The notes: generated by a model from the letters alone, not told the origin. A stretch of DNA of 64,000 nt from an uncultured bacterium (GCA_964398765.1 CAYNNL010000001.1:2214-66213); one strand, 5' to 3'. Counted from the first letter of the stretch, positions 34,309 through 51,591 are shown. Translations and numbers: made by a program.

Positions 34309-35382
34309 TCAGTCGTCGCGCTGCAGCACCGCCGCCAGGCGCTCGTCGGCCAGGAGCGTCTTCAGCTCCTGCACCCGGTCCTTGTGCACGAGCAGCACGG
34401 CGTTGCCGCGCTTCACGATTACCAGGTCGTGCACGCCGAGGGTGACGATCACGTCGTCCGGGTCCTCCGTGTAGACGATGTTGCGCGACGTGTCTAGCCC
34501 CACGTGCCTGCCCACCACGGTGTTGGCGCCGCCGGGCCCGTCCTCGGGCGTGAGGAGGCGCTCCAGGGCCACCCAGTCGCCGATGTCGTCCCAACGGAAC
34601 GTGCCCGGCACGACCAGCGCCTTCTCCGTGCGCTCCATCAGCGCGAAGTCGATGCTGATCTTCTTGAGGGTGGGGAAGACCGCCTCGACCTCGCCGCTGG
34701 CGAAGGCGCGTCGCAGCGGCAGCATGAGGTCGGGGTCCAGCTCGTCGAGCTCGGCCAGCGCCGTTCGCACGCGCCAGACGAAGATCCCGGCGTTCCAGAG
34801 GTGACGGCCGCCCGCCAGGTAGGCCTTGGCGGTAGGCAGGTTCGGCTTCTCGACGAAGCGCGCCACGCGGTTGCCGGCGCCGACCGGCTCGCCCACCTCT
34901 ATGTAGCCGTAGCCCGTGGCGGGACGCGACGGCGTTATGCCGATGGTCACCAACCCCTGCTCGTCGGCCGCGAGGCGGATGGCGGCGCGGGTCACGTCCT
35001 GGAAGGCGTCTGCGTCGGCGATCTCGTGGTCGGAGGAGAAGAACCCGGCGACCACGTCACCGAAACGCTCCTCGATGGTCAGGCAGGCGAGCGCGATGGC
35101 GGGCGCGGAGTCGCGCGGGGTGGGCTCAACGAGCAGGTTCTCGGGAGGCAGCTCGGGTAGCTGCTGGCGCACCAACGGCACGTACCGCTCCGCCGTGGCT
35201 ACCAGGATCCGGCGCGGCGAGCCGGCGAGGGGCAGCACGCGGTCGAACGTGGCCTGCAGCAACGTGCGGCCCGACTGGCTCAGGTCTAGGAACTGCTTCG
35301 GTTTGCCCGGCGTGGAGAGGGGCCAGAAGCGCTGGCCCTGCCCGCCGGCCATGATGACCGCCACGAACTGCTCGCTGCTCAC
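34309..35382 (-). CDS. manC: mannose-1-phosphate guanylyltransferase (no PMI domain)
   Basis: Contains FVAVIMAGGQGQRFWPLSTPGKPKQFL and YGYIEVGE. At 357 aa it has no C-terminal cupin/PMI module. Confidence 0.85.
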   Translation of the reverse strand: MSSEQFVAVIMAGGQGQRFWPLSTPGKPKQFLDLSQSGRTLLQATFDRVLPLAGSPRRILVATAERYVPLVRQQLPELPPENLLVEPTPRDSAPAIALACLTIEERFGDVVAGFFSSDHEIADADAFQDVTRAAIRLAADEQGLVTIGITPSRPATGYGYIEVGEPVGAGNRVARFVEKPNLPTAKAYLAGGRHLWNAGIFVWRVRTALAELDELDPDLMLPLRRAFASGEVEAVFPTLKKISIDFALMERTEKALVVPGTFRWDDIGDWVALERLLTPEDGPGGANTVVGRHVGLDTSRNIVYTEDPDDVIVTLGVHDLVIVKRGNAVLLVHKDRVQELKTLLADERLAAVLQRDD

Positions 35383-35412: not shown

Positions 35413-36243
35413 TCACTTGCCGAACCGACGCTCGCGCGCCTGGAACGACCGCACGGCCCTGAGGAAATCGACCTTGCGGAACTCGGGCCAGTTGGCGTCG
35501 CAGAAGTAGAACTCGCTGTAGGCGGTCTGCCACAGCAGGAAGCCCGACAGCCGCACCTCGCCCGACGTGCGGATCACGAAGTCCGGGTCCGGCAGGCCCG
35601 CCGTGTAGAGGTGGCGTGTGATCTCCTCGGCCGTCAGGCCCGCGGCCACCTCGTCGAGCGTGGCGCCGGCGGCCGCGCGTTCCGCGGCCAACCGCTTGAC
35701 GGCGTCCACGATCTCCTCCCGCCCCCCGTACCCGAGCGCCACGTTCACGTGCATGCCGTCGTAACCGCTCGTGGCCTCCTCCATCGCCGCAAGCGCCTCC
35801 TTGGCGGCGGGCGGGAAGTCGGCGATGTCGCCGATGACCCTCACTCGCACCTTGTTGGCGTGCAGGCGCTCGTCGTTGAGGAGGCTCCGCGCCTGCTCGG
35901 CGAAGAGCTGATGCAGGTGCTCCACCTCGCTGCTCGACCGGGAGCGGTTCTCCGTGCTGAAGCCCCAGAGCGTCACGTGCGGGATGCCCAGCTCCAGGCA
36001 CCAGTCGAGGACCTCGCGTGCCTTGCCCGCGCCGTAGTCGTGCCCCGCCGCGATGTCGATGCCGGCCGCGCGCGCGAAGCGGCGGTTGCCGTCCATGATG
36101 ATGCCGATGTGCTTCGGAAGGTGACCCTCACTGCTCACGGCGCGAAGCAGGCGGCGCTCGTACAGCCAGTAGAGCGGTTTCGTGACGGCGGACACGGCGC
36201 CGAAGGCGCGCAAGGCACCGTTCGCTTGGCTGGCGTCTGGCAC
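35413..36243 (-). CDS. uppS: undecaprenyl diphosphate synthase (isoprenyl transferase)
   Basis: Contains HIGIIMDGNRRFA, TLWGFSTENRSR and RTSGEVRLSGFLLWQTAYSEFYF. Confidence 0.92.
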   Translation of the reverse strand: MPDASQANGALRAFGAVSAVTKPLYWLYERRLLRAVSSEGHLPKHIGIIMDGNRRFARAAGIDIAAGHDYGAGKAREVLDWCLELGIPHVTLWGFSTENRSRSSSEVEHLHQLFAEQARSLLNDERLHANKVRVRVIGDIADFPPAAKEALAAMEEATSGYDGMHVNVALGYGGREEIVDAVKRLAAERAAAGATLDEVAAGLTAEEITRHLYTAGLPDPDFVIRTSGEVRLSGFLLWQTAYSEFYFCDANWPEFRKVDFLRAVRSFQARERRFGK

Positions 36244-36297: not shown

Positions 36298-39200
36298 TCA
36301 CTTGCCCGAGCCCCCCAGCATGGCCGCCGGGGTATGCAGCAGGATGTCGACGTCCCACCACACCGACCAGTTGCGCACGTAGTGCGCCTCCATGGCCTGC
36401 CGCTCCTCGAAGGTCACGTCGTTGCGCGCTTCCGTCTGCCAGTAACCGGTCATACCCGGCCTGGCGAGGAAGATGATGTCGCGTTCGGGGCCCATCAGGT
36501 CACGCTCCCTGACCATGTACGGCCGCGGACCGACCAGGCTCATCTGGCCCACGAACACGTTGAGGAGTTGCGGGAGCTCGTCGAGTGACGCGCGGCGGAG
36601 CAGCCGGCCGATCCGCGTCACCCGCGGGTCATGCTCGAGCTTGTGGTAGCGCCCATACTCCGCTCGCAGTTCCGGCTGCTCCGCCAGGAGCCCCTCGAGG
36701 CGCTCGTCGGCGTCTACGTGCATCGTGCGGAACTTGATGCAGCCGAACTCGCGGCCGTAACGGCCGATGCGGGGGGAGACGTACAGCGCCGGTCCGCGCG
36801 AGTCGAGGCGGATGAGGGCGGCGATGAGGAGGAGCGGCGGGCCGAGCACCACGAGGAGGAACGCAGCGCCGATCAGGTCGGTGACGCGCTTGACGGCCCG
36901 GTTGGTGGTCGAGGCGAGCTGGTTGCGGACCTCCAGACCCAGCGTCGGGCCCAGCGGCGCGGCGACGACCGAGTTGGTTGGCAGCCCACGCAGGTCGGGG
37001 AGGTACTGGATGTACTTGAGGCGCGCGCCCGACTGCAGGAGGACGCGGTCGAAGGCGGCCGCGGTCGCCGCGGCGGGGCTGATTATCGCGTGCCTCACCT
37101 CGTTGGTTTCGATGTAGGTCCAGGCGTGCTCCAGGCTGCCGGTGATCGGTAAGGCCGTGAGTGGCCAGTCGGTCGGGTCGCCGAACACCGCCATGGGGTG
37201 GAGGCCGATGTCGGGGTGACCCAGCAGGTGGCGGGTGACCTGGGCCGCGGCCGGCTCGGTGCCCAGCACGACGACGGGGCGGCCCCAGAGCCTGAGCAGC
37301 CGCAGCGCTCGTTGCGCGAGGAAGCGGAACGTGGGCGCCAACAGCGCCGCGGCCGGCACGGCCACGAAGAACACGCGCGCAGGCAGCCCGAACGCCTCCG
37401 GCGTCACCAGCGCGAGGAAGCCGACCACGACTGCCGCTGCTGCGGCGGCCTTCACGGAGCGGCCCAGCTTCTGGTGCGAAGGCAGGCCGTAGCCAGGGTA
37501 GAGGCCCGCGGCGGCGGCGATTGCCGGCCACACGAGCGTGGCGTACACGAGAGGAAGGCTCCACCCGGCGGCGGCCACGCCTGAGCCGTAGCGGCCCGCG
37601 GCGTACATGCCCAGCGAGAGGGCGGCAGCACCGGCGAAGCAGTCCGCGAACGCCAGACCGAGCCTCACGGCGGTCGCGCTGCCGACTCCCGTCTCGGCCT
37701 CGGCGATCTCCCGGCTCCCCACGGCTCGCCAACCCAGCACGGCGGCGAGGGGGTAGATGACCGCGCCGGACAGGAGGGTCGTGTCGAACAGGTTGAGCAC
37801 CACGATGCCGACGAGCACGAGGACGGCTGCCCGGTCGCGTTGTTGGACGGCCCTGGTAGCCAACAAGGCGAGCAACCCGAGCAGCCCTAACAACCCGATC
37901 ACGCCCCGGTCGACCCAAGCCGCGAGGAGCGAGTTGTGCGCGTGCGCGGCCACGGTTCGCAGAGGTACCTCGTCAGGATGCAGGGTCGCGACGGCGAGCG
38001 GGAAGCCGTCTGGTCCCCAGCCGAGCAGCGGCCTGGTCGCTATGGCCTCCATGGCGTCGCGCCAGATGGGGAAACGGGAGGTCCTCAGGTCCGCGACGCC
38101 GCGCGATGCGGCGCCCGGCTTGTAGGGAAGCAGCGTGCCTGACGGTGTCAACTGGAGCTCGGCGAACGAGGTCGTCGACCCCACTCGCTCCGAGCGGTCC
38201 GGCACGACGCCAACGTACCAGGTGAGCGGCCGCTCGCCCCGGTAACGGAACGTCACAGACGCGCGCACCCAGCCCTCACCGACCGGGTCGGCTTCGGCCG
38301 CCAAGACCTGGAGGGCCCCCGTGCTGCGCGCCGCGTGCGTTGGGCCGTCGAGGGTCGTGCCGAGGTTGGCCGCGGCCTCGTCGCCCACGCGGCCCCAGCC
38401 GTCGAACCCCGGCAGTGAGCCCGGCGGGACTTCCAGCAGCGCGCTGAGCGTGTAGCTCTGGCCGGGGGAGAGGGTGATGGCCTGCTGAAGCCTCGACCAT
38501 GGGTCGGGCGAGACCTTCGTGACGTCGAAGACGGTCCGGGCCGCCCCGGCCACCTGCTCTTGTCTGCCGACGAAGGTCACGCCGAGCGGGTACCACCAGT
38601 CGCCACGATTCACCTCTGTGCCCCTGAACAGGTTGCTCGGCTCGTCCGTGGGCGCCATGTCGGTCAGGAAGCCGGTGCGCCCCAACCCCAGCCAGGCGGC
38701 CACACCGCTGGCTATCAGCGCCATGACGACGATGAGGGCCCACTCGGCGCTCCTGGTGGAGCGCGTGCCCCGCCGACCCAGGAAACGGAGCCCGACGGCG
38801 ACTATCAGCCAGGCCGCCACCGCCTCGAGCGCACCGGACACCACCACGCCCACCGCGCCGATGGCCATGGCCACCACGCGCAGGCGCGGAGAGGGGAGCA
38901 CCAGCGCCACCGCCACCGACAGCACGAGGATCGCGTGACCGAACAGCGCGGGGTGGGTGTCCCACACGATTGCGTCGAGCGCGGTCCGGGCGACGTCGAA
39001 GCGGAAGCTCCCGATATGGCGGAGGCCGAGGCCCAGGGTGATCGCTAGGCCGACGACCAGCCCCGCGCTGATGTCGATCGGCGCGGTGGTGTTCTTCAGG
39101 CTGCGGCGGAGCTCCGTCGCCGACCGGAAGAGCAACCAGACCGCCAGCACCTGGGCGCTGCTCAGGAGGCCCTCCGTCACGTGGCCCCCGATGATGAACG

Positions 39201-39381
39201 GCAGCCCCAGCAGTAAGCTGCTGGCCCACCACCAGGCGTCCGCCCGCTGCAGGCGCACGTGGCCGCTGAAGATCGCCGTGACGGCGAGGAACGGACCGAC
39301 CGCCGGCATGGCGGCGAAGCTCAGCCCTGCGAGGAAGGCGGCACCGCGCTTGAAGGAGCTACTGGTCCTCGCGGACAACAC
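36298..39381 (-). CDS. fusion protein: O-antigen-ligase/polymerase-like (Wzy_C) membrane module with an inserted beta-rich domain, plus a complete WbaP-type polyprenyl-phosphate glycosyl-phosphotransferase
   Basis: A single open frame with no stop across both modules. The N-terminal module (~39381-37690) is polytopic, has AAHAHNSLLAAWVDRGVIGLLG (Wzy_C-type HN motif) and carries a ~160-aa insert. The C-terminal module (~37689-36298) has TM helices, a Rossmann-like RPVVVLGTEPAAAQVTRHLL, and the sugar-transferase core DSRGPALYVSPRIGRYGREFGCIKFRTM..LDELPQLLNVFVGQMSLVGPRP. I set the start at GTG 39381, with ATG 39309 as an alternative. The track start at 39759 overlaps wzx and is rejected. Confidence 0.75.
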   Translation of the reverse strand: MLSARTSSSFKRGAAFLAGLSFAAMPAVGPFLAVTAIFSGHVRLQRADAWWWASSLLLGLPFIIGGHVTEGLLSSAQVLAVWLLFRSATELRRSLKNTTAPIDISAGLVVGLAITLGLGLRHIGSFRFDVARTALDAIVWDTHPALFGHAILVLSVAVALVLPSPRLRVVAMAIGAVGVVVSGALEAVAAWLIVAVGLRFLGRRGTRSTRSAEWALIVVMALIASGVAAWLGLGRTGFLTDMAPTDEPSNLFRGTEVNRGDWWYPLGVTFVGRQEQVAGAARTVFDVTKVSPDPWSRLQQAITLSPGQSYTLSALLEVPPGSLPGFDGWGRVGDEAAANLGTTLDGPTHAARSTGALQVLAAEADPVGEGWVRASVTFRYRGERPLTWYVGVVPDRSERVGSTTSFAELQLTPSGTLLPYKPGAASRGVADLRTSRFPIWRDAMEAIATRPLLGWGPDGFPLAVATLHPDEVPLRTVAAHAHNSLLAAWVDRGVIGLLGLLGLLALLATRAVQQRDRAAVLVLVGIVVLNLFDTTLLSGAVIYPLAAVLGWRAVGSREIAEAETGVGSATAVRLGLAFADCFAGAAALSLGMYAAGRYGSGVAAAGWSLPLVYATLVWPAIAAAAGLYPGYGLPSHQKLGRSVKAAAAAAVVVGFLALVTPEAFGLPARVFFVAVPAAALLAPTFRFLAQRALRLLRLWGRPVVVLGTEPAAAQVTRHLLGHPDIGLHPMAVFGDPTDWPLTALPITGSLEHAWTYIETNEVRHAIISPAAATAAAFDRVLLQSGARLKYIQYLPDLRGLPTNSVVAAPLGPTLGLEVRNQLASTTNRAVKRVTDLIGAAFLLVVLGPPLLLIAALIRLDSRGPALYVSPRIGRYGREFGCIKFRTMHVDADERLEGLLAEQPELRAEYGRYHKLEHDPRVTRIGRLLRRASLDELPQLLNVFVGQMSLVGPRPYMVRERDLMGPERDIIFLARPGMTGYWQTEARNDVTFEERQAMEAHYVRNWSVWWDVDILLHTPAAMLGGSGK

Positions 39382-39498: not shown

Positions 39499-40797
39499 AT
39501 GGGTCGAACCGACGGCTCCGGACCCGCGTGGCGAGGCCGCCTGCAGAGACTGACACAAGATAGGTTCCTCAGGAGCGTCCTCAAGGTCGGCGGGGGCGGC
39601 GCCCTGGGGCAGGCGGTCGTCGTCCTGGCGTCGCCGGTGCTGACGCGGCTGTTCGACCCGGCGGACTTCGGCCTCTACTCGCTGTACGCCTCGCTCGTGC
39701 TCATCGTCGGTGGTGTGGCCTGCCTGCGCTACGACGTGTCCATACCCGTCCCGAAGCAAGACGGGACCGCCGTCGCGCTCGGCCAGGTGGCCCTCGGCTG
39801 GTTGCTGCTCGTGGCCGGGCTCACCGCCGCCGTGGCCGCCGCCGTGACGAGTGGTGGCGCCTTCGGCGTCCGCGAGACGATGTCGGCGGCGGTGGCGGGG
39901 GCGCTCGTGTTCCTGGGCGTGGTCGGCTACGGCGGCTACCAGTTGCTCAACTACTGGGCGATCCGCCGTCAGCTCTACGCGGCCTTGGGGCAGACCAGGA
40001 TCGTGCGGGGGGTCATGCAGGTCGTCATCCAGGTCGCCGCCGGCTTAGCGGGTTCCGGACCTCAGGGCCTCATCTCCGGGCACGCGCTGGGTCACCTCTT
40101 CGGGTTCATGGCGATCGGGCGCGACTTCGGCCGGGCTGTGGCCGCCGCTCCGCTCCGGTGGACGCGCTTGCTCTGGGCCGCCAGGCGGTACCGGAAGTAC
40201 GCGCTCTACTCCGCCCCTGCCGCGTTGATCGCAAGCGCCACGCTCCAGCTTCCCCCGGTGCTGTTACTGCTCTTCTACGACCCCCAGGCCGCCGGCTTGT
40301 ACGCGATCGCCCAGCGCGTCGTCGCGACGCCTGCCGGGATCGTCGGGCTCGCGATCAGCCAGGTGTTCATGAGCGAGGCCATGATGGTGGTCAGGACCTC
40401 CAAGAGAGCACTGAGGCGCCGCTACCTCCGTACGGTCTTCCTGACGCTCCTGGTAGGGCTCGTGCCCATAGGCGCGATCGCGGTGGGAGGACCGGCCCTA
40501 TTCGGGTGGGCGTTCGGGGCACAGTGGGCCGGCTCGGGCGTCTTCGTCAGGGCGATGTCCATCATGTTCGTCGCGCAGTTCGCCGTGTACCCCATCTCCC
40601 AGACCCTTCATGCGATCGAACGCCCGGACCTCCAACTCACCTCCGACATGGTCAGGATGGTCCTCGGGCTTGGCGTCCTGGTCGCATTGGCGGCGCTCCG
40701 GGTGCCGGCGGTGAGCGCCCTGCTCGGCTACTCCGTCGCCATGACGGTCGCCTACGTCTTCAACGTGTGGTTGGGATACAGGGCCCTCGGCAGGTGA
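39499..40797 (+). CDS. wzx: oligosaccharide flippase (Wzx / MOP superfamily)
   Basis: 432-aa polytopic ORF. The N-terminus ..LRSVLKVGGGGALGQAVVVLASPVLTRLFDPADFGLYSLY.. is typical of polysaccharide biosynthesis (Wzx) proteins. A TAGCGT -10 lies 7 nt before the ATG. Confidence 0.8.
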   Translation: MGRTDGSGPAWRGRLQRLTQDRFLRSVLKVGGGGALGQAVVVLASPVLTRLFDPADFGLYSLYASLVLIVGGVACLRYDVSIPVPKQDGTAVALGQVALGWLLLVAGLTAAVAAAVTSGGAFGVRETMSAAVAGALVFLGVVGYGGYQLLNYWAIRRQLYAALGQTRIVRGVMQVVIQVAAGLAGSGPQGLISGHALGHLFGFMAIGRDFGRAVAAAPLRWTRLLWAARRYRKYALYSAPAALIASATLQLPPVLLLLFYDPQAAGLYAIAQRVVATPAGIVGLAISQVFMSEAMMVVRTSKRALRRRYLRTVFLTLLVGLVPIGAIAVGGPALFGWAFGAQWAGSGVFVRAMSIMFVAQFAVYPISQTLHAIERPDLQLTSDMVRMVLGLGVLVALAALRVPAVSALLGYSVAMTVAYVFNVWLGYRALGR

Positions 40798-40846: not shown

Positions 40847-42271
40847 GTGATGGCAACGGTTCTCGCCCTGGGACTCGTGGCAGCCGGGGTCGCCCTCATC
40901 CTTCTCGGACGCAGGCTCCAGTTCGTCCTGATCCTGCTGGTCGTCCTGCTGTTCCAGAACGTCGCGCTGATGCTCCTTCTGAAGGCGGGTTTGGTCACGG
41001 AGAGCGGCGCCAGGGTGTTGACAGCGACCAAGGAGCTGTTGCTTCTGGGGGGTCTGCTCGCTCTCGCTGGGATCAGGTTCGGGCGGGTGGTCCTCACGGG
41101 GCGCGCGCGCCGGGCCGTCATCCCGACGCTGGTGTTCGCTTGGTTCGCCCTCGTTGCGGTTCACGCGCTCGCTTTCGGCGAACCGTGGCTGGCGAGGCTC
41201 GCTGGTGCGCGTGCCGTCCTGATCCTCCCCGCGCTCTACCTGCTCGGTTACTGGCTGGCGCTCTCATGGCGGGACACGGGCCGGTTGATCCAGGTGCTGG
41301 TGGTCGTCGGGGTCTTGATGGCCGCGTTCGGTTTCGTGGAGGCGTACCTCCTGCCCGACACCTTCTGGCTGGACATCGGCCACGAGGAGTTCTACCTCCA
41401 GAAGATCGACCGTCCGGTCCAGGACGCGCTCTACGCCAACATGCGGTTCTGGTTTAACGGCCAGCCGATCAGGCGCGTCGCGTCGATCACTGGCGACCCC
41501 TTGATCTCGAGCTACCCGATGGCCCTGGTGCTCGTGCTGGTCGTCGCCTTCTTCGTCTATAGGGCGAGGCTGCACGTCACTCACCCGGTCCTCTTCGTCG
41601 TGGTCGGGGCGGCCACGTTGTTGACCCTCAGCCGCGGTGCCGTCCTCACGGTCCTCGTCGCCGGGTGCCTGGTCTTCCTTGGGAAGCGGTCCGGCCGCGG
41701 CCTCGCCTGGGTCACGGCGGTACTGCTGCTCGGGCTCGTGGTGGCGACCACGCTCTTCGGCGACGCCATCTTGAGGGTGACCACGGGGGCTGGGCACATC
41801 GACGAGTTGGTACAGGGGCTGCAGCGGGGCGTCGAGCGGCCTCTCGGCTTCGGGCTCGGTACAGCCAGCAGCCTCGCCACGGGCGTCGCCCGCTCGAGCG
41901 ACATCGGTGGGATCGTGCTCGGCGGTGGAGACAGCTACATGGGGTCCCTGGCCACACAGATGGGGTTGCCGGCGGTCGTGGCCTTCTACGCCCTCATGCT
42001 GCTGATGATCGCCGACCTGGCGCGTCACTCCGTACGCCTCTCTAGGGGCCGACACCCGAACGCCTGGTGGTTCGGCGCCGTGGCGGCGATGCTCGCGGGC
42101 CTGCTCGTCACGAGCGCCGTGAACGAGTCCGGGTTCGGGTTCGTGGCCTCTGGTGCCACGTACGTCTTGGCCGGGACCCTGGCACACCTAGGCGTCAGCC
42201 GCGCGCGCGTCGCCGTGCGGGTGGAGGCCGGGGCACGCATCCCGCGCGGGCTCGGGGTGGCGGATGCCTAA
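40847..42271 (+). CDS. O-antigen polymerase/ligase-like (Wzy_C family) membrane protein, no insert
   Basis: 474-aa ORF with ≥10 predicted TM segments and a large loop before the last helices. It sits in a glycan locus. A TATCCT -10 (40835-40840) lies 6 nt before the GTG/ATG. Confidence 0.7.
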   Translation: MMATVLALGLVAAGVALILLGRRLQFVLILLVVLLFQNVALMLLLKAGLVTESGARVLTATKELLLLGGLLALAGIRFGRVVLTGRARRAVIPTLVFAWFALVAVHALAFGEPWLARLAGARAVLILPALYLLGYWLALSWRDTGRLIQVLVVVGVLMAAFGFVEAYLLPDTFWLDIGHEEFYLQKIDRPVQDALYANMRFWFNGQPIRRVASITGDPLISSYPMALVLVLVVAFFVYRARLHVTHPVLFVVVGAATLLTLSRGAVLTVLVAGCLVFLGKRSGRGLAWVTAVLLLGLVVATTLFGDAILRVTTGAGHIDELVQGLQRGVERPLGFGLGTASSLATGVARSSDIGGIVLGGGDSYMGSLATQMGLPAVVAFYALMLLMIADLARHSVRLSRGRHPNAWWFGAVAAMLAGLLVTSAVNESGFGFVASGATYVLAGTLAHLGVSRARVAVRVEAGARIPRGLGVADA

Positions 42272-43262
42272 GGCAGGGGTGGGGCTTTACGTCGTCTGGC
42301 GCGACTACCAGCGCCGAGCGGAGCTGCTCGGGCCCGCGCTCGGGTGTGAAGTGGTCTTCCTGCCCAACCGCTGGAAGGCGCGCTGGCTTAGACCCCTCGA
42401 CTACCTGCTTAATCTGGTGGCCACCCTTCGGCTCATCCGGGAGCGGGCCCCGGCCTACCTCCTGTTCCAGAGCCCGCCGCCCTTCGTGGCCTACGCGGCC
42501 CTCATCGCGCGGGTCCCCTACCTCGTCGACGCCCACAACGCGGCCGTCCAGGGCCGCTGGGTCAGGCTGCCCTCGGTGAGGGCGCTGTCGCGACGCGCGT
42601 TGGCCGTGGTGGCTCATAACGACGAGGCCGCGGCCCTCGCGCGCCGCGCCTTCCCGGGCAGCAGCGTGCTCGCGCTGCGCGATCCGGTCACCGAGATCCG
42701 GTCGCAGCGGGACGGCGCGGGCAGGACCACCGGTCAGGTGCTGTTCATCTGTTCTTTCGGTGGAGACGAGCCCCTCGAGGTCATCTTCGGCCTCATCCAG
42801 GCGCGACCCGACCTTTCGTTCGTGATCACCGCGCCGCCGCACCGGCTCTCGCCGGAGTGGCGCCGCCGTTTCGAGACCTTGCCGAACCTGAGGTTGACGG
42901 GTTTCCTGCCCACCGAGCGGTACCAGGAACTCCTGACGACGTCCGGCGCCGCCGTGGTGTTGACCACCAGGGCGGCAACGCAACCCAGCGGGGCCTGCGA
43001 GGCCCTCGCATCCGATACCCCGCTCGTGGTCTCCAGGACGACGCTCACCGAGCGCCTCTTCGGCGCCTGGGCGCAGGTGGCGGCGACCGACGTAGCGAGC
43101 CTGTCGGCGGCCCTCGACGCAGCGCTGGCCGCGCCGAGAAGCCTCGCCTCAGAGCGCGCCGCCTGGCGGTCCGCCTTCGAGACCGAACTCCTCGCGGTGC
43201 GTGCCGTCTTGCCGTCAGACACGAGAACCTCAGGAGGTGATGCCGATCAGCGAACGGCCTAG
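42264..43262 (+). CDS. putative glycosyltransferase (GT-B-like, divergent)
   Basis: 332 aa, overlapping the upstream gene by 8 nt. The C-terminal part LTGFLPTERYQELLTTSGAAVVLTTRAATQPSGACEALASDTPLVVS resembles a GT4-type EX7E-region layout. The assignment is tentative. Confidence 0.6.
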   Translation: MPKAGVGLYVVWRDYQRRAELLGPALGCEVVFLPNRWKARWLRPLDYLLNLVATLRLIRERAPAYLLFQSPPPFVAYAALIARVPYLVDAHNAAVQGRWVRLPSVRALSRRALAVVAHNDEAAALARRAFPGSSVLALRDPVTEIRSQRDGAGRTTGQVLFICSFGGDEPLEVIFGLIQARPDLSFVITAPPHRLSPEWRRRFETLPNLRLTGFLPTERYQELLTTSGAAVVLTTRAATQPSGACEALASDTPLVVSRTTLTERLFGAWAQVAATDVASLSAALDAALAAPRSLASERAAWRSAFETELLAVRAVLPSDTRTSGGDADQRTA

Positions 43263-44442
43263 GTCGACGCTCATCATCGTCGAGAACCTGCCCGTGCCGT
43301 TCGATCGGCGCGTCTGGTACGAGGCGACCTCGCTGGCGGCCGCCGGTTACTCGGTGGCGGTGATATGTCCCACGGGGAAGGGGCACGACGCCAGGTACGA
43401 GGTCCTCGAGGGGGTGCGCGTCTACCGCCACCCGCTGCCTCTCGAGGGCAAAGGCGTGCTCAGCTACTTCCGCGAGTACTTCCTGGCGCTCTGGTGGGAG
43501 TTCAGGCTCTCGTTCCGGGCTTGGCGGGAGGAGAGGTTCGACGTCGTGCAGATCTGTAACCCGCCCGACGTCTTGTTCCTCGTCGCGCTCACGCACAAGC
43601 TCCTGCACCGAGCGCGGGTGATCTTCGACCACCACGACGTGACGCCGGAGCTCTTCGAGGAGAAGTTCAAGAAGCGCGGCCCGCTCTACCATCTGCTGCG
43701 CCTGAGCGAGCGACTGACGATGGCGACGGCGGACGTGGTCATATCCACGAACGAGTCGTACCGGAACATCGCCACGGGCCGCGGCCGGAAGCCGCCTGAA
43801 GACGTCTTCGTGGTGCGGAGCTCACCCGACGTCGGCAAGTTCCGCCGAGTCGAGCCCGATCCCGCCTTGAGGCGCGGCCGGCGCTGCGTGGTCGGCTATG
43901 TTGGCGTGATGGCCGAACAGGACGGGGTGGACACGGTCATCCACATCGCGAACGAGCTCGTCCACGGGCGCGGCCGCGACGACATCGGTTTCCTCCTGAT
44001 CGGCGGCGGGCCCGAGTTCGAATCGCTCGTCAAGCTGCGAGACGAGCTCGGCCTGGCCGAGCACGTCGAGTTCGCCGGGTTCCAGTCGGGCGACGACCTG
44101 CTCCGCCACCTGTCCTCCTGCGATGTCGGTATCAGTCCCGACCCGATCAGCACCTACAACGACCTCTGCACGATGAACAAGACGCTCGAGTACATGACAC
44201 TCGGGCTGCCGGTCGTCCAGTTCGACGTTGTCGAGGGGCGAGCGTCGGCCGCGGACGCGGCCATCTACGTGGCCGACAACGACGTCGGCGCCATGGCCGA
44301 CGCGGTGGCGCTCCTCGCCGACGATCCGGAGCTGCGCGGGCGGTTGGGTGCCAGGGGTCGCGAGAGGATCGAGACCTCGTTGTCGTGGGAGCACCAGGTC
44401 CCTGCGCTCCTGGCAGCGTACGACAAGGCGTTGGGTGGATGA
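43240..44442 (+). CDS. family-4-type glycosyltransferase
   Basis: Start MPISERP follows an AGGAGGTG SD. Contains IIVENLPVPFDRRVW and VGYVGVMAEQDGVD, with FAGF..CDVGISPD..NKTLEYMTLGLPVV as the GT4 C-terminal motif. Confidence 0.85.
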   Translation: MPISERPRSTLIIVENLPVPFDRRVWYEATSLAAAGYSVAVICPTGKGHDARYEVLEGVRVYRHPLPLEGKGVLSYFREYFLALWWEFRLSFRAWREERFDVVQICNPPDVLFLVALTHKLLHRARVIFDHHDVTPELFEEKFKKRGPLYHLLRLSERLTMATADVVISTNESYRNIATGRGRKPPEDVFVVRSSPDVGKFRRVEPDPALRRGRRCVVGYVGVMAEQDGVDTVIHIANELVHGRGRDDIGFLLIGGGPEFESLVKLRDELGLAEHVEFAGFQSGDDLLRHLSSCDVGISPDPISTYNDLCTMNKTLEYMTLGLPVVQFDVVEGRASAADAAIYVADNDVGAMADAVALLADDPELRGRLGARGRERIETSLSWEHQVPALLAAYDKALGG

Positions 44443-46070
44443 GGCTCCGGGGGGCCGGCGTCGTCGCGGGCGCGGTGACGGCCGTTTACCCGGGAGCGCT
44501 GGCCCTGCTGGGCGCGCTGGCCCTGGTGGGCCGCCGGTCCGTGCGCCTGCCGTACCCGGCGCTGCTCCTCGCCGCTAGCGTCCTCTGGCTCCTGCCCGCG
44601 GCCTCCGACCTTTTCCTGGGAAGGGTGGGCCCCGTCACCCTCGGGGAGGTCGGACAGCTCGCCGTCTTCCTCCTGGTAGCCGCGGGAGGCGCGGCACTCG
44701 GGCGCGCGCTCGGCTCGGCTCGGCACCTCGTACCGGGGCTGCTCGTCGGCCTCGGAGCCGTAGCGCTCGCGTCGGCCGCCGCAGCGTTCGAGGGGCCGGC
44801 GGGCCGCGTGGCCCTCTGGACCGATCATCCGAACATCCTTGGCGCCTCGGTGCTCCTGCCGGCGGCCGCGACCGCGCTGCTTGCGCGCAGCGTTCGGATC
44901 GGTGCCGCTGCCATCGCGGCAGCAGCCGTACCCGTCGGCCTGTCAGGCAGCCGGTCCGCACTCATCGTGCTGATCGTCACGGCAGCCTACCTCGTCGTGG
45001 CCGCTGCTGCGAGGCGGTGGCGCGGGGGGCGGGCGCGCCTCACGCTCGCCGTGGCGTCGCTGGCCGTCGCCGCGTTGGCGGTCGTCGGTGCCGTCATGGT
45101 CCAACCGCGGCTCGGGGCGTTCGTCAGCGACCTCGCGCGGCTGCCGCTGGCGGCGCTCAAGCCTGGCCTGCTGGGAGTGCCGCAGCCGCTTGGTGTCACG
45201 GTCACCGACCTGGAAGGCGGTGAGCTTCGGCTCGAGCGCACGGGCAGCGACTGGTGGTCGCGGCTCCAGTACCCGCTCGTGTTGTTGCCCGGTAAGACGT
45301 ACACGTTCTCCGTCGAGCTGGCGGCCTCGGGCCCGGCTGACACGATCGGCGTCTACGGCGCCGTGAACGCGGACGACACGGTCACGGCGGCAAGGCGAGG
45401 CGCGTGGGAGGCGACCGCCACCGGAGCGCTCGTCGTCACGCACCTGTCCACCGAGGAGCTGGCGGACGGTTGGACGAGGGTGACGTTGACGTTCGAGTCC
45501 GGCAGCCACGCCAAGTCGTGGATCTGGATCGGGCCGGCCCCCGACCTGGCCGGCGCTGGTGGGTCCGGGGCGGCGGTCAGGGTCAGGGCCACGAGCGCGT
45601 GGGAGGGTGGCGAGAACGCCAAGCCGGCAGGCGCCCAGACGGCCGAGGCCGCCTCGTTGGCGACGAACCAGGCCGTGGCAAGGGTGTACGCCTTCGTCGG
45701 CGCCTGGAGCGGGTTCGAGGCGGCGCCCGTTTTCGGGCAGCGAGGAGTGGAGTTCGCCTCCTACTTCCGCCACCAGGCACCGACCTTCTACACCGCCGTT
45801 CCCACCCACGCGCACAACGCCTTCCTCCAATCGCTGTTCGAGAGCGGAACCAGTGGCACGCTCGGGTTCCTGCTGCTGCTCGTGTGGGCCGGCGCGGCGA
45901 TCGCCAGCCGCAGTGATCACCGTGGGCTTCTCGTGCTCCTCGCCGTCGCCGTTCTTGCCAACACCGTGGACACGGTCATGTGGAGCGCAGGGATGATGTA
46001 CTTCCTGGCGGCCGTCGGGGGTATGGTGGCCGGGTTCGGCGCCCCACCCGCTGACTTGATGACCGAGTGA
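44439..46070 (+). CDS. O-antigen-ligase-like (Wzy_C) membrane protein with an inserted beta-rich (CBM-like) domain
   Basis: The ATG overlaps the upstream stop (ATGA). The protein is polytopic, with VPTHAHNAFLQSLFESGTSGTLG (HN motif). The ~140-aa insert (45177-45599) is clearly paralogous to the insert in the fusion protein. Confidence 0.7.
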   Translation: MRLRGAGVVAGAVTAVYPGALALLGALALVGRRSVRLPYPALLLAASVLWLLPAASDLFLGRVGPVTLGEVGQLAVFLLVAAGGAALGRALGSARHLVPGLLVGLGAVALASAAAAFEGPAGRVALWTDHPNILGASVLLPAAATALLARSVRIGAAAIAAAAVPVGLSGSRSALIVLIVTAAYLVVAAAARRWRGGRARLTLAVASLAVAALAVVGAVMVQPRLGAFVSDLARLPLAALKPGLLGVPQPLGVTVTDLEGGELRLERTGSDWWSRLQYPLVLLPGKTYTFSVELAASGPADTIGVYGAVNADDTVTAARRGAWEATATGALVVTHLSTEELADGWTRVTLTFESGSHAKSWIWIGPAPDLAGAGGSGAAVRVRATSAWEGGENAKPAGAQTAEAASLATNQAVARVYAFVGAWSGFEAAPVFGQRGVEFASYFRHQAPTFYTAVPTHAHNAFLQSLFESGTSGTLGFLLLLVWAGAAIASRSDHRGLLVLLAVAVLANTVDTVMWSAGMMYFLAAVGGMVAGFGAPPADLMTE

Positions 46071-46091: not shown

Positions 46092-47348
46092 ATGACCCAC
46101 ATAAAGGCGATCGCGAAGAAGCTCAGGGGGGTCACCGTCGACGCTCCCGCCCCTTTCCAGCGAAGACTGGACGCCGAGTGGCGGAGCGTATCCGAACTGG
46201 GCAGGTCGGTCGCCCCTGGCGACCGCCACCATGTCTTGTTAGCCCCGTCGGGAGCGGGCAACATCGGTGACCAGGCGATGTTCGAGGCGTTCGTCGAGAA
46301 CGTCGGCGGTCCTATCACGCTCGTCGCCTTCGCTGTCGGCGATTTCTCCGTCCCCGCGGCACACCGCGACCGGGTGTCGGTGGTCGCGCTGCCGGCCCTC
46401 GTCTCGGGGGCGGCCACGCGTGACCAGACGACCCTGCGCGAGTTCGTCGGGCTGCTGGACGGGAGTTCCGGGTTCTCCGTGATCGGCGCCGACGTGCTCG
46501 ACGGCGGGTACTCCTACCGACGCTCGGTGCAGCGGACCTCACTCGCCACCTACGCCGCTCGGCTGGGTGTCGACTCCAGGGTCCTCGGGTTCAGTCTCAA
46601 CGAGGCCCCGGACGGGCGCTGTGTGACCGCGTTGGCGGACGCCGGCAAGAGCGGTGTGCGCCTGCTGTTGCGCGATCCGGTGTCTGCTGAGAGGGCACGG
46701 GCGCTGGGGTTCGAGGGCGTCGAAGAGTCGGCCGACCTGGTGTTCGCTGCCAGGACCGTCGCCGGAGCGGAGACGATCACCGGTCTCCCAGACCTGACGG
46801 GCGGCTACGCCCTCGTCAACGCCAACAGCCTCATCGCAAGGACCATGGATCAGGTAGAAGAGTACCGGCGGATCGTCCGCTACCTACGTGAGCGTGACCT
46901 AGAGGTGGTGTTCGTCCCTCACGACACGCGCGACGGTTCAGACGACGTCGCCGAGTGCAGGCGGGTCCGCGATGCGGCCGGCTCTGCCGGTACCTGGCTC
47001 GTCGACAGGTTGCTTGAGCCGGCCCAAGTGCGCGGCCTCGCCGCTGGGGCGCGCGTGGTGGTGACGGGCAGGATGCACCTCGCGATAATGGCGCTGCATG
47101 GTGCCGTCCCGGCCATACCTCTGTCGTACCAGGGGAAGCTCAGTGGCCTGATGCGGCTCTTCGGTACCGAGGGGCTCTCCGTTGAGCCTCGCCCGGGCTT
47201 CGCGGCCGAGGTGGAGGAGCGGCTGGAGCGCGTCCTGGCGGCCGGCGACGCCATAAGGCGTTCGCTGTCGGAACGGTTGCCGCGGGTGAAGGAGCTCGCC
47301 GGCAAGAACTTTGGTGGGTTGCCACTCGTCGACGCGAGTCCTAGCTAG
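46092..47348 (+). CDS. polysaccharide pyruvyl transferase family protein
   Basis: Contains LLAPSGAGNIGDQAMFEAF, GADVLDGGYSY, LLLRDPVSAERA and VVVTGRMHLAIMAL, typical of PS_pyruv_trans (CsaB/WcaK-like) proteins. Confidence 0.8.
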   Translation: MTHIKAIAKKLRGVTVDAPAPFQRRLDAEWRSVSELGRSVAPGDRHHVLLAPSGAGNIGDQAMFEAFVENVGGPITLVAFAVGDFSVPAAHRDRVSVVALPALVSGAATRDQTTLREFVGLLDGSSGFSVIGADVLDGGYSYRRSVQRTSLATYAARLGVDSRVLGFSLNEAPDGRCVTALADAGKSGVRLLLRDPVSAERARALGFEGVEESADLVFAARTVAGAETITGLPDLTGGYALVNANSLIARTMDQVEEYRRIVRYLRERDLEVVFVPHDTRDGSDDVAECRRVRDAAGSAGTWLVDRLLEPAQVRGLAAGARVVVTGRMHLAIMALHGAVPAIPLSYQGKLSGLMRLFGTEGLSVEPRPGFAAEVEERLERVLAAGDAIRRSLSERLPRVKELAGKNFGGLPLVDASPS

Positions 47349-51030: not shown

Positions 51031-51587
51031 GGCCTCGCCGCCGGGAAGACCCGCAGGTCGGCCAGCAGGGGCAGGGCCGCGTCGCGCTCCGAGACGATCG
51101 GCGCCGCGCCCGCGAGACGCCAGTCGACGCCGATGGTCGGGTCGTCCCAGCGCACCCCGGCGTCGGCGGCAGGAGCGTAGGGGCGGTCGGTCTTGTAGAT
51201 CACGTCGGCCTCCTCCGAGAGCACGGCGAAACCGTGCGCGAAGCCCGCGGGCACCCACAGCTGTTCGAGTTCCACGTCGTCCAGCACGGCGCTGACCCAC
51301 CTCCCGAACGTGGCGGAGCCGCGGCGCAGGTCCACGGCCACGTCGAGGATGGTCCCGCGCGTGACGCCGACGAGCTTGCCCTGGGCGTGCTCCCCCGCCT
51401 GGAAGTGGAGCCCCCTCACCACGCCCCTGACGGAGCGGGAGTGGTTGTCCTGCACGAACGTGAGGTCGAGCCCCGCGGCCGCGAAAGCGGCGGCGTTCCA
51501 GCGTTCGAGGAAGAAGCCGCGCCGGTCCTGGCGCACTGTGGGGGTCATCAGCTTGACCGCCGGGATCTCGAGGCTCGCGACGTTCAC
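51027..51587 (-). CDS. rfbC: dTDP-4-dehydrorhamnose 3,5-epimerase
   Basis: Contains QDRRGFFLERW, VRGLHFQ and WVPAGFAHGF. Confidence 0.92.
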   Translation of the reverse strand: MNVASLEIPAVKLMTPTVRQDRRGFFLERWNAAAFAAAGLDLTFVQDNHSRSVRGVVRGLHFQAGEHAQGKLVGVTRGTILDVAVDLRRGSATFGRWVSAVLDDVELEQLWVPAGFAHGFAVLSEEADVIYKTDRPYAPAADAGVRWDDPTIGVDWRLAGAAPIVSERDAALPLLADLRVFPAARP

Positions 51588-51591
51588 GGTC

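What the first reader, a model, noticed from the sequence alone, without database searches (positions are those of the whole stretch)
36298..39381. Single open frame fusing an O-antigen-ligase/polymerase-like module to a complete WbaP-type phosphoglycosyl transferase
**Seen.** More than 1,020 codons run without a stop.
- The N-terminal ~560 aa form a polytopic Wzy_C-like module. It has the AHAHNSLL motif and a ~160-aa extracytoplasmic insert.
- At about aa 690 of the track ORF (nt ~37690) the protein continues into a full WbaP-like enzyme. This part has its own TM bundle, a Rossmann-like VVVLGTEPAAAQVTRHLL domain and the catalytic Bac_transf core (..GCIKFRTM..DELPQLLNVFVGQMSLVGPRP..).
- I found no convincing internal SD or start at the junction.

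**Established knowledge.** The PGT catalyses the first, cytoplasmic-face step on undecaprenyl phosphate. Wzy and WaaL-type proteins act at the last, periplasmic-face steps on the same lipid carrier.

**Inference.** A covalent fusion of the first and last lipid-carrier enzymes, followed directly by uppS, suggests a machine that recycles or channels undecaprenyl phosphate between release and re-initiation. I do not know of a characterised example.
Basis: partly seen in the sequence, partly recalled or inferred. Interest (0 to 1): 0.7.

Follow-up and report, generated by a model that had tools for sequence, protein, structure and literature searches.

The report
Glycan ligase fused to initiating transferase
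A conserved 1,027-residue membrane protein, probably from Trueperaceae-like bacteria, joins an O-antigen-ligase-like enzyme that works on the outer face of the membrane to the WbaP-type enzyme that starts glycan assembly on the inner face; this real but uncharacterised design could show how cells tie the start and end of lipid-carrier use together.

Summary
The minus-strand ORF 36298-39381 (GTG start, 1,027 aa) encodes three parts:
- a Wzy_C-family polytopic module (aa 1-552) with a ~150-aa beta-sandwich insert;
- a ~13-aa cytoplasmic tether;
- a complete WbaP-type large phosphoglycosyl transferase (aa 566-1027).

The fusion is not an assembly artefact. More than 110 protein clusters and 35 independent contigs (28-92% identity, 39-73% GC) keep both modules in one frame. 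The few "split" cases lie on frameshift-ridden or truncated contigs. PGT modules have been exchanged between lineages while the in-frame junction and tether length stayed the same.

The N-module carries the Arg and HxHN residues shared by WaaL and PglL. Its insert resembles carbohydrate-binding modules and phage spike fibres. uppS follows directly in 16 loci.

Most likely this is a "bookend" enzyme: the PGT loads undecaprenyl phosphate, and the ligase-type module later unloads the finished glycan onto an unknown acceptor, which cannot be lipid A-core if the organism is indeed Deinococcota, an LPS-less phylum. Whether the N-module is a ligase or a polymerase is unresolved. This is a new variant of the known bifunctional PGT fusions, of moderate interest.

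The parts
36298..39381 (-). Whole fusion gene, 1,027 codons plus stop, GTG start
   Evidence: Orthologues of the same length appear.
37726..39381 (-). N-module, aa 1-552: Wzy_C-family (WaaL/PglL-like) polytopic enzyme with 12 predicted helices
   Evidence: Pfam Wzy_C 42.3 bits. The AF2 model has helices 2-230 and 484-552. Foldseek hit to WaaL 7tpg_B, E 7e-3. The family profile hits the O-oligosaccharyltransferase 9rmk_A, E 5e-6.
38107..38664 (-). Insert in the large outer-face loop, aa 240-425; beta-sandwich strands at aa 264-412; invariant W262/W263, K289, R297-L298-Q299-Q300, W329, D395
   Evidence: pLDDT about 90 or above. Foldseek hits: CBM22/CBM4/CBM16/CBM27 and phage baseplate or tail-fibre proteins. 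NCBIfam NF048003 (GTA spike fibre domain) scores above its cut-off in the orthologues P0118, P0162 and P0146, but only 20.9 bits here.
37894..38091 (-). Putative catalytic loop, aa 431-496: invariant R436, H480, H482, G493; sequence HAHN-x9-G-x2-G
   Evidence: Invariant in 96 and in 10 diverse sequences. Aligned to R298 and THSHN of 9rmk_A. These correspond to WaaL R288/H338 and PglL R298/H349 (PMC3643930).
37687..37725 (-). Cytoplasmic tether, aa 553-565, between the last N-module helix and the first PGT helix
   Evidence: pLDDT about 68. The distance from W551 to D580 is 30 residues in 20 of 30 loci, range 26-32. No stop, ATG or well-spaced Shine-Dalgarno sequence.
37297..37686 (-). PGT four-helix transmembrane bundle, aa 566-695
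   Evidence: Aligned to WbaP residues 4 to about 130. Helices 566-596, 609-624, 635-664 and 668-695.
36922..37284 (-). Cytoplasmic Rossmann-like nucleotide-binding domain of large PGTs (PF13727-type), aa 700-820
   Evidence: WbaP alignment. Foldseek 8t53_A, TM 0.84. PF13727 is recorded for several orthologues but gave no hit at E <= 0.1 for this protein.
36301..36909 (-). PGT catalytic domain, aa 825-1027: re-entrant helix 825-860, KFRTM, DPRVT, D934-E935 dyad, GPRP
   Evidence: Pfam Bac_transf, E 3e-57. These residues are invariant in 96 sequences. Foldseek hits to PglC, E 1e-10.
35413..36243 (-). uppS (undecaprenyl diphosphate synthase), 54 nt downstream, probably in the same operon
   Evidence: PF01255, E 2e-77. 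No terminator-like site in the gap. Directly downstream in 16 related loci.
34309..35382 (-). manC-like mannose-1-phosphate guanylyltransferase, third gene of the conserved trio
   Evidence: Synteny is shown.
39499..40797 (+). Divergently transcribed Wzx-like flippase (Polysacc_synt_3)
   Evidence: No homologue in L081 or L083, so it belongs to the variable cassette.
40847..42271 (+). 474-aa polytopic protein with no family hit; candidate Wzy polymerase
   Evidence: Other loci carry a 400-476-aa full-length Wzy_C protein in their cassettes.
42264..44442 (+). Two glycosyltransferase genes (GT1-like, 332 aa; GT4, 413 aa)
44385..46070 (+). Stand-alone 561-aa paralogue of the N-module, with the same WWSRLQ insert motif and THAHN-x9-G-x2-G
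   Evidence: Wzy_C, E 5e-7. Sequence read. About 31% identity to the N-modules of L083 and L084, E 6e-18.
46092..47348 (+). Polysaccharide pyruvyl transferase
49061..53746 (-). rmlA, rmlB, rmlC and rmlD-like genes and a Wzz-like chain-length determinant (52361-53746)

Best explanation
**Overall.** This is a genuine bifunctional "bookend" enzyme of a Wzx/Wzy-type glycan pathway.

**Shown by homology.** The C-terminal module is a complete large monotopic phosphoglycosyl transferase. [quoted passage not shown]

**Inferred pathway.** The cluster's glycosyltransferases, pyruvyl transferase, Wzx, Wzy-like protein and Wzz then build, flip and polymerise the glycan.

**Inferred role of the N-module.** The N-terminal module is a WaaL/PglL-type GT-C enzyme. 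Its Arg436 / His480 / His482 site and carbohydrate-binding-like beta-sandwich face the outside. It most likely transfers the finished glycan from undecaprenyl diphosphate to a conserved acceptor and so frees the carrier. The acceptor is unknown, and it is not lipid A-core if the organism is Deinococcota, as the homologue names suggest, because that phylum lacks LPS.

**Inferred reason for the fusion.**
- A short cytoplasmic tether links the two membrane bundles, so initiation and termination are made 1:1 from one message together with uppS.
- Because the late-acting module comes first, a truncating mutation in it also removes the PGT. This would prevent lethal trapping of the carrier in dead-end intermediates.
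- Allosteric feedback between the modules is possible but untested.
For: **The fusion is real and selected.**
- About 115 of the 120 homologous clusters listed carry both Pfam domains at about 1,020-1,030 aa.
- 35 contigs at 28-92% N-module identity and 39-73% GC keep one frame.
- The ~1,000-aa representatives tested (except two shorter ones), down to 29% N-module identity, are Wzy_C + Bac_transf, most also with CoA_binding_3.
- PGT modules were exchanged while the fusion was kept. The L100 and L098 N-modules are 84% identical, but their PGT parts are 34% and 56% identical. The L091, L096, L098 and L099 N-modules group with this window, yet their PGT catalytic domains group with L106, L108 and L087.
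- Tether length is conserved.

**Both modules look catalytically intact.**
- The PGT motifs and the D934-E935 dyad are invariant.
- The C-part aligns with full-length WbaP.
- R436, H480 and H482 are invariant and align with the residues essential in WaaL and PglL.

**The topology is coherent.**
- The model has 12 helices, and the Arg-rich loops at 201-210 and 510-517 fit a cytoplasmic position.
- Model quality: pLDDT 86.6, pTM 0.76.

**Ligase is favoured over polymerase.**
- The gene sits in a fixed position with uppS, manC and the pyr genes, while the rest of the glycan cassette has no homologue in related genomes.
- The N-module tolerates different PGT partners.
- Other Wzy candidates and a Wzz are present in the window, and no family hit to an outer-membrane exporter was seen among the ORFs scanned.

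**Rationale for coupling.** Loss of waaL-type late steps causes Und-P sequestration, whereas loss of the initiating PGT does not (PMC12826051).
Against: - No biochemical data exist for any member.
- The cluster holds a stand-alone paralogue with the same motif and insert. That protein could be the ligase and the fused module the polymerase.
- The N-module evolves faster than its neighbours (64% versus 82-88% identity in L081; 37% versus 68-79% in L083). It is therefore not a strictly constant part.
- The third Arg of WaaL/PglL (R215/R224) has no clear invariant counterpart.
- Structural similarity to WaaL is weak because of the insert (TM 0.42).
- Internal initiation at GTG V572, giving a separate PGT, cannot be excluded from sequence alone.
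- Contacts between the modules could not be inspected, because no coordinates or PAE were available.
- uppS linkage is absent from about 8 loci that have downstream sequence.
- The window's assignment to Trueperaceae rests only on the names of 55-70%-identical homologues.
Confidence: 0.5

Rival explanations
1. The N-module is the Wzy-type polymerase of the pathway, or of one of two polymers, and is fused to the PGT. Ligation is then done by the stand-alone 561-aa paralogue or by another enzyme.
For: - The Pfam family Wzy_C covers polymerases as well as ligases.
- A paralogue with the same HAHN-x9-G-x2-G motif and insert lies in the same cluster.
- A carbohydrate-binding insert could hold a growing chain.
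- The N-module diverges quickly.
Against: - Polymerases are specific for the repeat unit. This module keeps its genomic position while the whole glycan cassette is replaced.
- The same N-module lineage works with different PGT modules.
- Each locus already has one or two other Wzy_C-type candidates.
Confidence: 0.22
2. The fusion is a carrier-recycling machine that passes undecaprenyl phosphate released at the ligase site directly to the PGT site.
For: - The fusion is covalent and has a short tether of conserved length.
- uppS is conserved directly downstream.
- pTM of 0.76 for the whole chain is compatible with a defined arrangement of the modules.
Against: - By the known families and the modelled topology, the ligase-type site releases Und-PP on the outer leaflet and the PGT needs Und-P on the inner leaflet.
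- The steps in between need an Und-PP phosphatase and a flippase. Neither is in the protein, and none was found among the scanned ORFs of the window or the recurrent neighbour families of about 40 related loci.
- No extra domain is left unaccounted for in the model.
Confidence: 0.1
3. The N-module no longer transfers glycan. It acts as a membrane sensor or scaffold that binds periplasmic Und-PP-glycan or wall polysaccharide and regulates or localises the PGT.
For: - The insert has its own invariant W/R/Q/D residues, which suggests a conserved ligand.
- Whether PGTs are feedback-controlled by lipid-linked intermediates is an open question (PMC12826051).
Against: The Arg and His residues essential for WaaL and PglL catalysis are invariant across sequences down to 28% identity. 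This is what one expects of an active enzyme.
Confidence: 0.08
4. The single frame is an assembly or sequencing artefact, or a recent pseudo-fusion; the organism really has two genes.
For: A few database relatives appear split or lack the PGT domain: P0105, P0116, P0120.
Against: - P0105 loses the frame only after aa 850.
- P0116 lies on a contig on which many other genes are also split.
- The cluster of P0120 contains a 1,031-aa member.
- 35 independent contigs from many samples keep the frame.
- Protein conservation runs through the junction.
Confidence: 0.02

Closest known systems
WbaP of Salmonella enterica, a large monotopic phosphoglycosyl transferase (PDB 8t53, 9s7s)
   Same: aa 566-1027 align over the full length of WbaP from its residue 4 (E 1e-111). 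Foldseek TM is 0.84. The four-helix bundle, the nucleotide-binding domain, the re-entrant helix and the Asp-Glu dyad are all present.
   Different: It carries a 565-aa N-terminal enzyme module. It scores just below the NCBIfam WbaP cut-off (398.3 versus 403) and passes only the generic EPS_sugtrans model, so the sugar it transfers cannot be named.
WaaL O-antigen ligase (E. coli; Cupriavidus metallidurans, PDB 7tpg)
   Same: Both have the Wzy_C domain, and a large outer-face loop with an invariant Arg and His at the positions of WaaL R288 and H338. About 12 helices are predicted. It behaves as a conserved-position gene beside a replaceable glycan cassette.
   Different: Named homologues are from Trueperaceae (Deinococcota), a phylum reported to lack LPS (PMC3133647), so the acceptor cannot be lipid A-core. 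A ~150-aa beta-sandwich is inserted in the loop. It is fused to a PGT. The structural match is weak (TM 0.42, E 7e-3).
PglL-type O-oligosaccharyltransferases (PDB 9rmk), and WsaB of Geobacillus S-layer glycosylation
   Same: 9rmk_A is the best solved-structure sequence match (E 5e-6), with R298 and THSHN aligned to R436 and AHAHN. There is a weak TfpM hit. WsaP (a WbaP homologue), WsaB (Wzy_C) and rml genes form one S-layer glycosylation cluster (PMC2943079), which gives a similar gene set as separate proteins.
   Different: There is no PglL_A (PF15864) hit at E <= 0.1. No TPR domain is present, and no candidate target protein gene lies next to it.
Bifunctional monotopic PGT fusions ("Bi-PGTs"; O'Toole et al. 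2021, as summarised in PMC10942596)
   Same: A PGT catalytic domain is joined in one polypeptide to another enzyme of the same glycan pathway.
   Different: From my own recollection, not checked here, the described partners are cytoplasmic enzymes of adjacent steps. Here the partner is a polytopic enzyme acting on the other side of the membrane at the far end of the pathway, and the PGT is of the large (WbaP) type. I could not read the 2021 paper, so I cannot say whether this architecture is listed there.
Carbohydrate-binding modules CBM4/16/22/27 and the phage / gene-transfer-agent head spike fibre domain (NCBIfam NF048003)
   Same: The fold of aa 264-412 matches them (Foldseek E 1e-4 to 1e-6, TM to target about 0.6). 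NF048003 scores above its cut-off in three orthologues.
   Different: The domain is inserted inside the catalytic loop of a membrane enzyme. Its ligand is unknown. This protein itself scores below the NF048003 cut-off (20.9 versus 36 bits).

Membership tests
Monotopic phosphoglycosyl transferases, large (WbaP-like) subfamily | Bac_transf (PF02397) catalytic domain above the Pfam gathering score | tested here: met
   193.3 bits against a cut-off of 27; aa 831-1022 cover profile positions 1-178 of 179.
Monotopic phosphoglycosyl transferases, large (WbaP-like) subfamily | Catalytic Asp-Glu dyad and flanking motifs (KFRTM, DPRVT, GPRP) are conserved | tested here: met
   D934, E935, K883, R885, D918-P919-R920 and G951-P952-R953-P954 are invariant in 96 sequences. 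That this Asp-Glu pair is the catalytic dyad is taken from my own knowledge of PglC.
Monotopic phosphoglycosyl transferases, large (WbaP-like) subfamily | N-terminal four-helix bundle plus a cytoplasmic nucleotide-binding domain ahead of the catalytic core | tested here: met
   Profile alignment to WbaP residues 4-476. Foldseek 8t53_A, TM 0.84. PF13727 is recorded for several orthologues but is not hit by this protein at E <= 0.1.
WbaP sensu stricto (UDP-Gal:Und-P Gal-1-P transferase, TIGR03022) | Score at or above the curated NCBIfam cut-off | tested here: not met
   398.3 bits against a cut-off of 403. TIGR03025 (generic EPS PGT) is passed, 326 against 295.6. Sugar specificity is therefore left open.
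Wzy_C superfamily (WaaL ligases, PglL/PilO O-OTases, some Wzy polymerases) | PF04932 above the gathering score | tested here: met
   42.3 bits against 31.7. Only profile positions 75-148 match, because the insert interrupts the domain.
Wzy_C superfamily (WaaL ligases, PglL/PilO O-OTases, some Wzy polymerases) | Conserved Arg and His of the large outer-face loop (WaaL R288/H338; PglL R298/H349) | tested here: met
   R436 and H480/H482 are invariant and align to R298 and THSHN of 9rmk_A. The residue equivalences come from PMC3643930.
Wzy_C superfamily (WaaL ligases, PglL/PilO O-OTases, some Wzy polymerases) | Second conserved Arg (WaaL R215; PglL R224) | tested here: inconclusive
   The candidate R235 (GLGRTGF) is nearly invariant among close relatives but is replaced in two of ten diverse sequences.
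WaaL O-antigen ligase sensu stricto | WaaL-like 12-helix GT-C fold | tested here: inconclusive
   12 helices are predicted. Foldseek 7tpg_B gives E 7e-3, probability 1.0, TM to target 0.42, with the alignment broken by the insert.
WaaL O-antigen ligase sensu stricto | The acceptor is lipid A-core of LPS | not testable with these tools
   Named homologues are Trueperaceae. Deinococcus-Thermus are reported to lack LPS genes (PMC3133647). The rest of this genome could not be searched.
PglL-type protein O-oligosaccharyltransferase | PglL_A motif (PF15864) beside the Wzy_C region | tested here: not met
   No hit at E <= 0.1 in the Pfam scan. The motif definition is from PMC3643930.
PglL-type protein O-oligosaccharyltransferase | Gene adjacent to its target glycoprotein (pilin or S-layer protein) | tested here: not met
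   No such gene was found in the window or among the recurrent neighbours in about 40 loci.
Wzy repeat-unit polymerase | Links repeat units and co-varies with repeat-unit structure (no universal sequence signature) | not testable with these tools
   Only indirect evidence is available: the N-module keeps its place while the cassette and the PGT partner change. This argues against a polymerase but does not exclude it.
Bifunctional PGT fusions (Bi-PGT) | PGT catalytic domain and a second pathway enzyme in one conserved open reading frame | tested here: met
   The class is described in PMC10942596.

The most novel reading that the evidence does not exclude
The two modules form a transmembrane feedback device. 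Occupancy or turnover of the outer-face ligase site, sensed through the tethered helix bundles, gates the cytoplasmic PGT. New undecaprenyl phosphate is then committed only as fast as finished glycan is unloaded. This would be a built-in answer to the open question of whether PGTs are feedback-controlled by Und-PP-linked intermediates. The ligase would attach the polymer to a so far unknown, non-LPS envelope acceptor of Deinococcota-like diderms.
Probability: 0.15. Interest if true: 0.8.

Novelty: new variant of a known kind. Interest (0 to 1): 0.55.

Why it matters
**Carrier economy.** Undecaprenyl phosphate is scarce and is shared with peptidoglycan synthesis. Blocking late glycan steps traps it and harms cells, whereas losing the initiating PGT does not (PMC12826051). 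How cells match initiation to completion is largely unknown.

**A natural test case.** Here the first enzyme is tied to a probable carrier-releasing enzyme, with the carrier synthase gene next in line. The fusion persisted even when the PGT half was swapped. Linked and unlinked versions can be compared directly for stoichiometric, genetic fail-safe or allosteric coupling.

**Other points of interest.**
- It points to an unidentified acceptor for a WaaL-like ligase in what is probably a Deinococcota lineage, a phylum without LPS.
- It shows a carbohydrate-binding module inserted into a GT-C catalytic loop.
- A single ~110-kDa protein holding both ends of a pathway is an attractive target for cryo-EM.

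Tried and rejected
**Searches that gave little.**
Its only relevant result was L002, a cyanobacterium with separate, overlapping wbaP then Wzy_C genes in the opposite order.
- The word-indexed protein search with the N-module profile returned only 38 hits and no new organism names. The taxonomy of the low-GC members therefore stays unknown.
- Six literature searches found no paper describing a Wzy_C-Bac_transf fusion. The key survey (O'Toole 2021, PMC7848588) and the WaaL structure paper (PMC9884178) are not held.

**Analyses that misled or could not be done.**
- Direct BLASTP of the N-module against the two other polytopic proteins of the cluster gave nothing significant. Paralogy of the 561-aa protein showed up only through tblastn against other N-modules and by reading its sequence.
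- Model coordinates and PAE are not available, so contacts between the modules and the position of the insert relative to the active site could not be examined.

**Ideas considered and rejected.**
- Internal translation start: no ATG, and the only in-frame GTGs have poor Shine-Dalgarno sequences. It remains unproven either way.
- Apparent unfused relatives (P0105, P0116, P0120) are frameshifted or truncated.
- L123 shares only 47 residues of the insert and is not informative.
- The motif H[NSQ]x9Gxx[GTY] for ligases is recalled from memory. The protein fits it, but I could not verify the motif in the library, and the paralogue fits it too, so it does not discriminate.

Full report
**1. The observation**

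The finding lies on the minus strand. The longest open frame is 36298-39759. The probable start is the GTG at 39381, preceded by GAAGG, which gives 1,027 aa. Third-position GC is 0.89, like the neighbouring genes.

Domain evidence:
- Pfam finds Bac_transf (aa 831-1022, 193 bits) and Wzy_C (aa 427-500, 42.3 bits, cut-off 31.7).
- NCBIfam TIGR03022 (WbaP) aligns aa 576-1026 to almost its whole model.
- A profile of the family aligns aa 566-1027 to solved WbaP chains from their residue 4 (E 1e-111).
- uppS follows 54 nt downstream and a manC-like gene 30 nt after that. No terminator-like site lies in either gap.

**2. Is the fusion real?**

Yes.
- A search of 5.8 billion proteins gave 122 relatives. 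About 115 of the 120 listed have both Pfam domains and lengths near 1,027 aa, at 40-91% identity.
- Protein conservation runs straight through the junction.
- A metagenome scan seeded only with N-module motifs returned 36 loci. Together with loci fetched by protein identity, 35 contigs continue past the junction, and all keep the PGT in the same frame as the N-module. They span 28-92% N-module identity and 39-73% GC.
- The apparent exceptions are artefacts. P0105 loses the frame after aa 850. P0116 sits on a contig where many genes are split. P0120 shares a cluster with a 1,031-aa member.
- At the junction there is no stop and no ATG. The GTG codons V554 and V572 lack a well-spaced Shine-Dalgarno sequence, and V572 is not conserved. 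A second, internally initiated product cannot be excluded from sequence alone.

**3. Anatomy**

AlphaFold2 with a 96-sequence alignment gave mean pLDDT 86.6 and pTM 0.76.

*The N-module.*
- It has nine helices (aa 2-230), a 250-residue loop, and three more helices (aa 484-552).
- Arg-rich loops at 201-210 and 510-517 fit a cytoplasmic position. This places the big loop outside and the C-terminus of the module inside.
- An inside C-terminus is what a connection to the N-in WbaP bundle requires. This step is inferred.

*The outer loop.*
- It holds a 12-strand beta-sandwich (aa 264-412).
- After the sandwich come the invariant R436, H480, H482 and G493.

*The tether.*
- aa 553-565 are less confidently modelled.
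- The distance from W551 to D580 is 30 residues in 20 of 30 loci (range 26-32), although the tether sequence itself is not conserved.

*The PGT part.*
- It has the four-helix bundle, the Rossmann-like domain and the re-entrant helix.
- The catalytic domain has invariant KFRTM, DPRVT, D934-E935 and GPRP.
- Foldseek gives WbaP 8t53 (TM 0.84) and PglC.

**4. What the N-module is**

- By sequence, its best solved relative is the O-oligosaccharyltransferase 9rmk_A (E 5e-6). There, R298 and THSHN align with R436 and AHAHN.
- Schulz et al. equate PglL R298/H349 with WaaL R288/H338, residues important for function (PMC3643930).
- By structure, WaaL 7tpg is found, but weakly (E 7e-3, TM 0.42), because the insert breaks the alignment.
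- The PglL_A motif family is not hit.
- The module is therefore a member of the Wzy_C superfamily of Und-PP-glycan transferases with the ligase/OTase catalytic residues. It is not a demonstrable WaaL or PglL orthologue.

**5. The insert**

- It matches CBM22, CBM4, CBM16 and CBM27 and phage baseplate or tail-fibre proteins.
- It also matches viral ConA-like lectin and CenC-like proteins.
- In three orthologues it passes the NCBIfam cut-off for the GTA/phage head spike fibre domain. In this protein that model scores below its cut-off.
- It has its own invariant Trp, Arg, Gln and Asp residues (WW, RLQQ, W329, D395).
- It is most simply read as a glycan-binding module with a conserved ligand. This is an inference.

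**6. Context**

*The cluster in the window*:
- a Wzx-like flippase;
- a 474-aa polytopic protein with no family hit;
- two glycosyltransferases;
- a 561-aa Wzy_C protein;
- a pyruvyl transferase;
- rmlA, rmlB, rmlC and an rmlD-like gene;
- a Wzz-like protein.

No other PGT is present. No family hit to an outer-membrane exporter, an Und-PP phosphatase, or a DedA/DUF368 flippase was found among the main ORFs of the window.

*The 561-aa paralogue.*
- The 561-aa protein is a distant paralogue of the N-module.
- It carries WWSRLQ and THAHN-x9-G-x2-G.
- It matches other N-modules at about 31% identity, E 6e-18.

*Synteny.*
- In orthologous loci at 68% and 40% identity, the order fusion-uppS-manC-aldehyde dehydrogenase-pyrR-pyrB-pyrC-crp is kept.
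- The flippase, glycosyltransferases, pyruvyl transferase and 474-aa protein have no homologue there.
- The fusion therefore sits at the fixed edge of a replaceable glycan cassette.

*Across related loci.*
- uppS is directly downstream in 16 loci, about 4 kb downstream in 4, and absent from the available flank in about 8.
- Recurrent neighbours are ordinary sugar-nucleotide and glycosyltransferase genes and short full-length Wzy_C proteins.

**7. Module exchange**

Identity matrices computed separately for the N-module, the PGT bundle plus Rossmann domain, and the PGT catalytic domain disagree.
- L100 and L098 share 84% in the N-module, but only 34% and 56% in the two PGT parts.
- The N-modules of L091, L096, L098 and L099 group with this window (53-69%). 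Their PGT catalytic domains group with L106, L108 and L087 (57-63%) rather than with this window (48-56%).
- A third type (P0117-P0119) has a PGT that fits TIGR03025 and resembles WcaJ, not WbaP.

The PGT half has thus been replaced at least once while the in-frame junction and tether length were preserved. This is the strongest evidence that the fused state itself is selected.

**8. Range**

- An exhaustive search of 1.84 billion representatives with the N-module found 588 relatives.
- Most full-length hits among the top ~25 are proteins of about 1,000 aa. Those tested carry Wzy_C + Bac_transf, most also with CoA_binding_3, down to 29% N-module identity.
- Below them come many stand-alone proteins of 520-610 aa that cover the whole module, insert included.
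- The only organism names attached are Trueperaceae MAGs, in the phylum Deinococcota. Members at 39-46% GC (L086, L087, L108) suggest a wider spread, but their taxonomy is unknown.

**9. Mechanism**

*Shown by homology.* The C-module makes Und-PP-sugar at the inner face.

*Inferred.* The N-module removes a glycan from Und-PP at the outer face.

*Why I favour a terminal ligase or OTase-type transfer to a conserved acceptor over polymerisation:*
- The module keeps its place while the cassette changes.
- It tolerates different PGT partners.
- It coexists with other Wzy candidates and a Wzz.
- No outer-membrane exporter was seen.

If the organism is Deinococcota, as the homologue names suggest, the acceptor cannot be lipid A-core, because Deinococcus-Thermus lack LPS (PMC3133647). 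A WbaP homologue with a Wzy_C O-OTase and rml genes is known, as separate proteins, in Geobacillus S-layer glycosylation (PMC2943079).

*Why fuse?*
- waaL-type late steps are "sequestration-associated", while the initiating PGT genes are not (PMC12826051).
- With the late module N-terminal, truncating mutations in it also abolish initiation.
- The two activities are made 1:1 and in one operon with uppS.
- Allosteric feedback is conceivable.

**10. Novelty and verdict**

PGT fusions ("Bi-PGTs") are a recognised class (PMC10942596), and this architecture already sits in databases under generic PGT names.

I rate it a new variant of a known kind. The fusion is real, conserved and mechanistically suggestive. 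Function is inferred only from homology and context.

Scores:
- Interest: 0.55.
- Confidence in the full best explanation (a single bifunctional protein with a ligase-type N-module and coupling as the reason for the fusion): about 0.5. The rival readings take 0.22 (polymerase), 0.10 (carrier channelling), 0.08 (non-catalytic sensor) and 0.02 (artefact).

Noticed in passing
window 44385-46070 (+): A stand-alone 561-aa Wzy_C protein has the same architecture as the fused N-module: a WWSRLQ beta-insert and THAHN-x9-G-x2-G. Comparable long Wzy_C proteins (532-643 aa) sit in every related cluster examined, often just upstream of the fusion. Their role relative to the fused module is unknown.
   Followed up: partly
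L100 vs L098; L091, L096, L098, L099 vs L106, L108, L087: Fusion genes are mosaic. Near-identical N-modules (84%) are joined to very different PGT modules (34% and 56%). This implies recombination at or near the junction with the reading frame preserved.
   Followed up: yes
P0118, P0162, P0146 (insert region); window 38107-38664: The loop insert is homologous to the NCBIfam "phage head spike fiber" (gene transfer agent) domain. So a phage-type glycan-recognition fold appears to be shared with a host glycan-assembly enzyme.
   Followed up: partly
L115 2543-3937 (+): Directly downstream of one fusion orthologue lies a gene that combines a cytidylyltransferase-like domain with PEP mutase. This suggests a phosphonate-decorated glycan in that lineage.
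   Followed up: no
L002 9785-12560: In a Coleofasciculaceae cyanobacterium, a separate wbaP (480 aa) is followed by an O-antigen-ligase-like gene (452 aa) that overlaps it by 26 nt. This is the opposite gene order, and the two are unfused.
   Followed up: partly
window 5922-8636 (-): A 904-aa protein with G8 and CEMIP beta-helix domains, a pairing best known from animal hyaluronan-degrading proteins.
   Followed up: no
window 51592-52347 (-) and 49939-51300 (-): The rmlD-like ORF is only 251 aa and matches only the first half of the RmlD profile (positions 3-149 of 287). The rmlB ORF as listed overlaps rmlC by about 270 nt. This may be a frameshift, a truncation or a start-codon artefact.
   Followed up: no
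window 48154-49032 (+): A MerR/TipAS-type regulator and an inositol monophosphatase-family gene (47345-48160) interrupt the glycan cluster between the pyruvyl transferase and the rml genes.
   Followed up: no
L123 1-141: A low-coverage bioreactor contig encodes a 500-aa ORF that shares only 47 residues (55% identity) with the insert domain and has no other part of the N-module. The beta-domain may therefore occur in other protein contexts.
   Followed up: no
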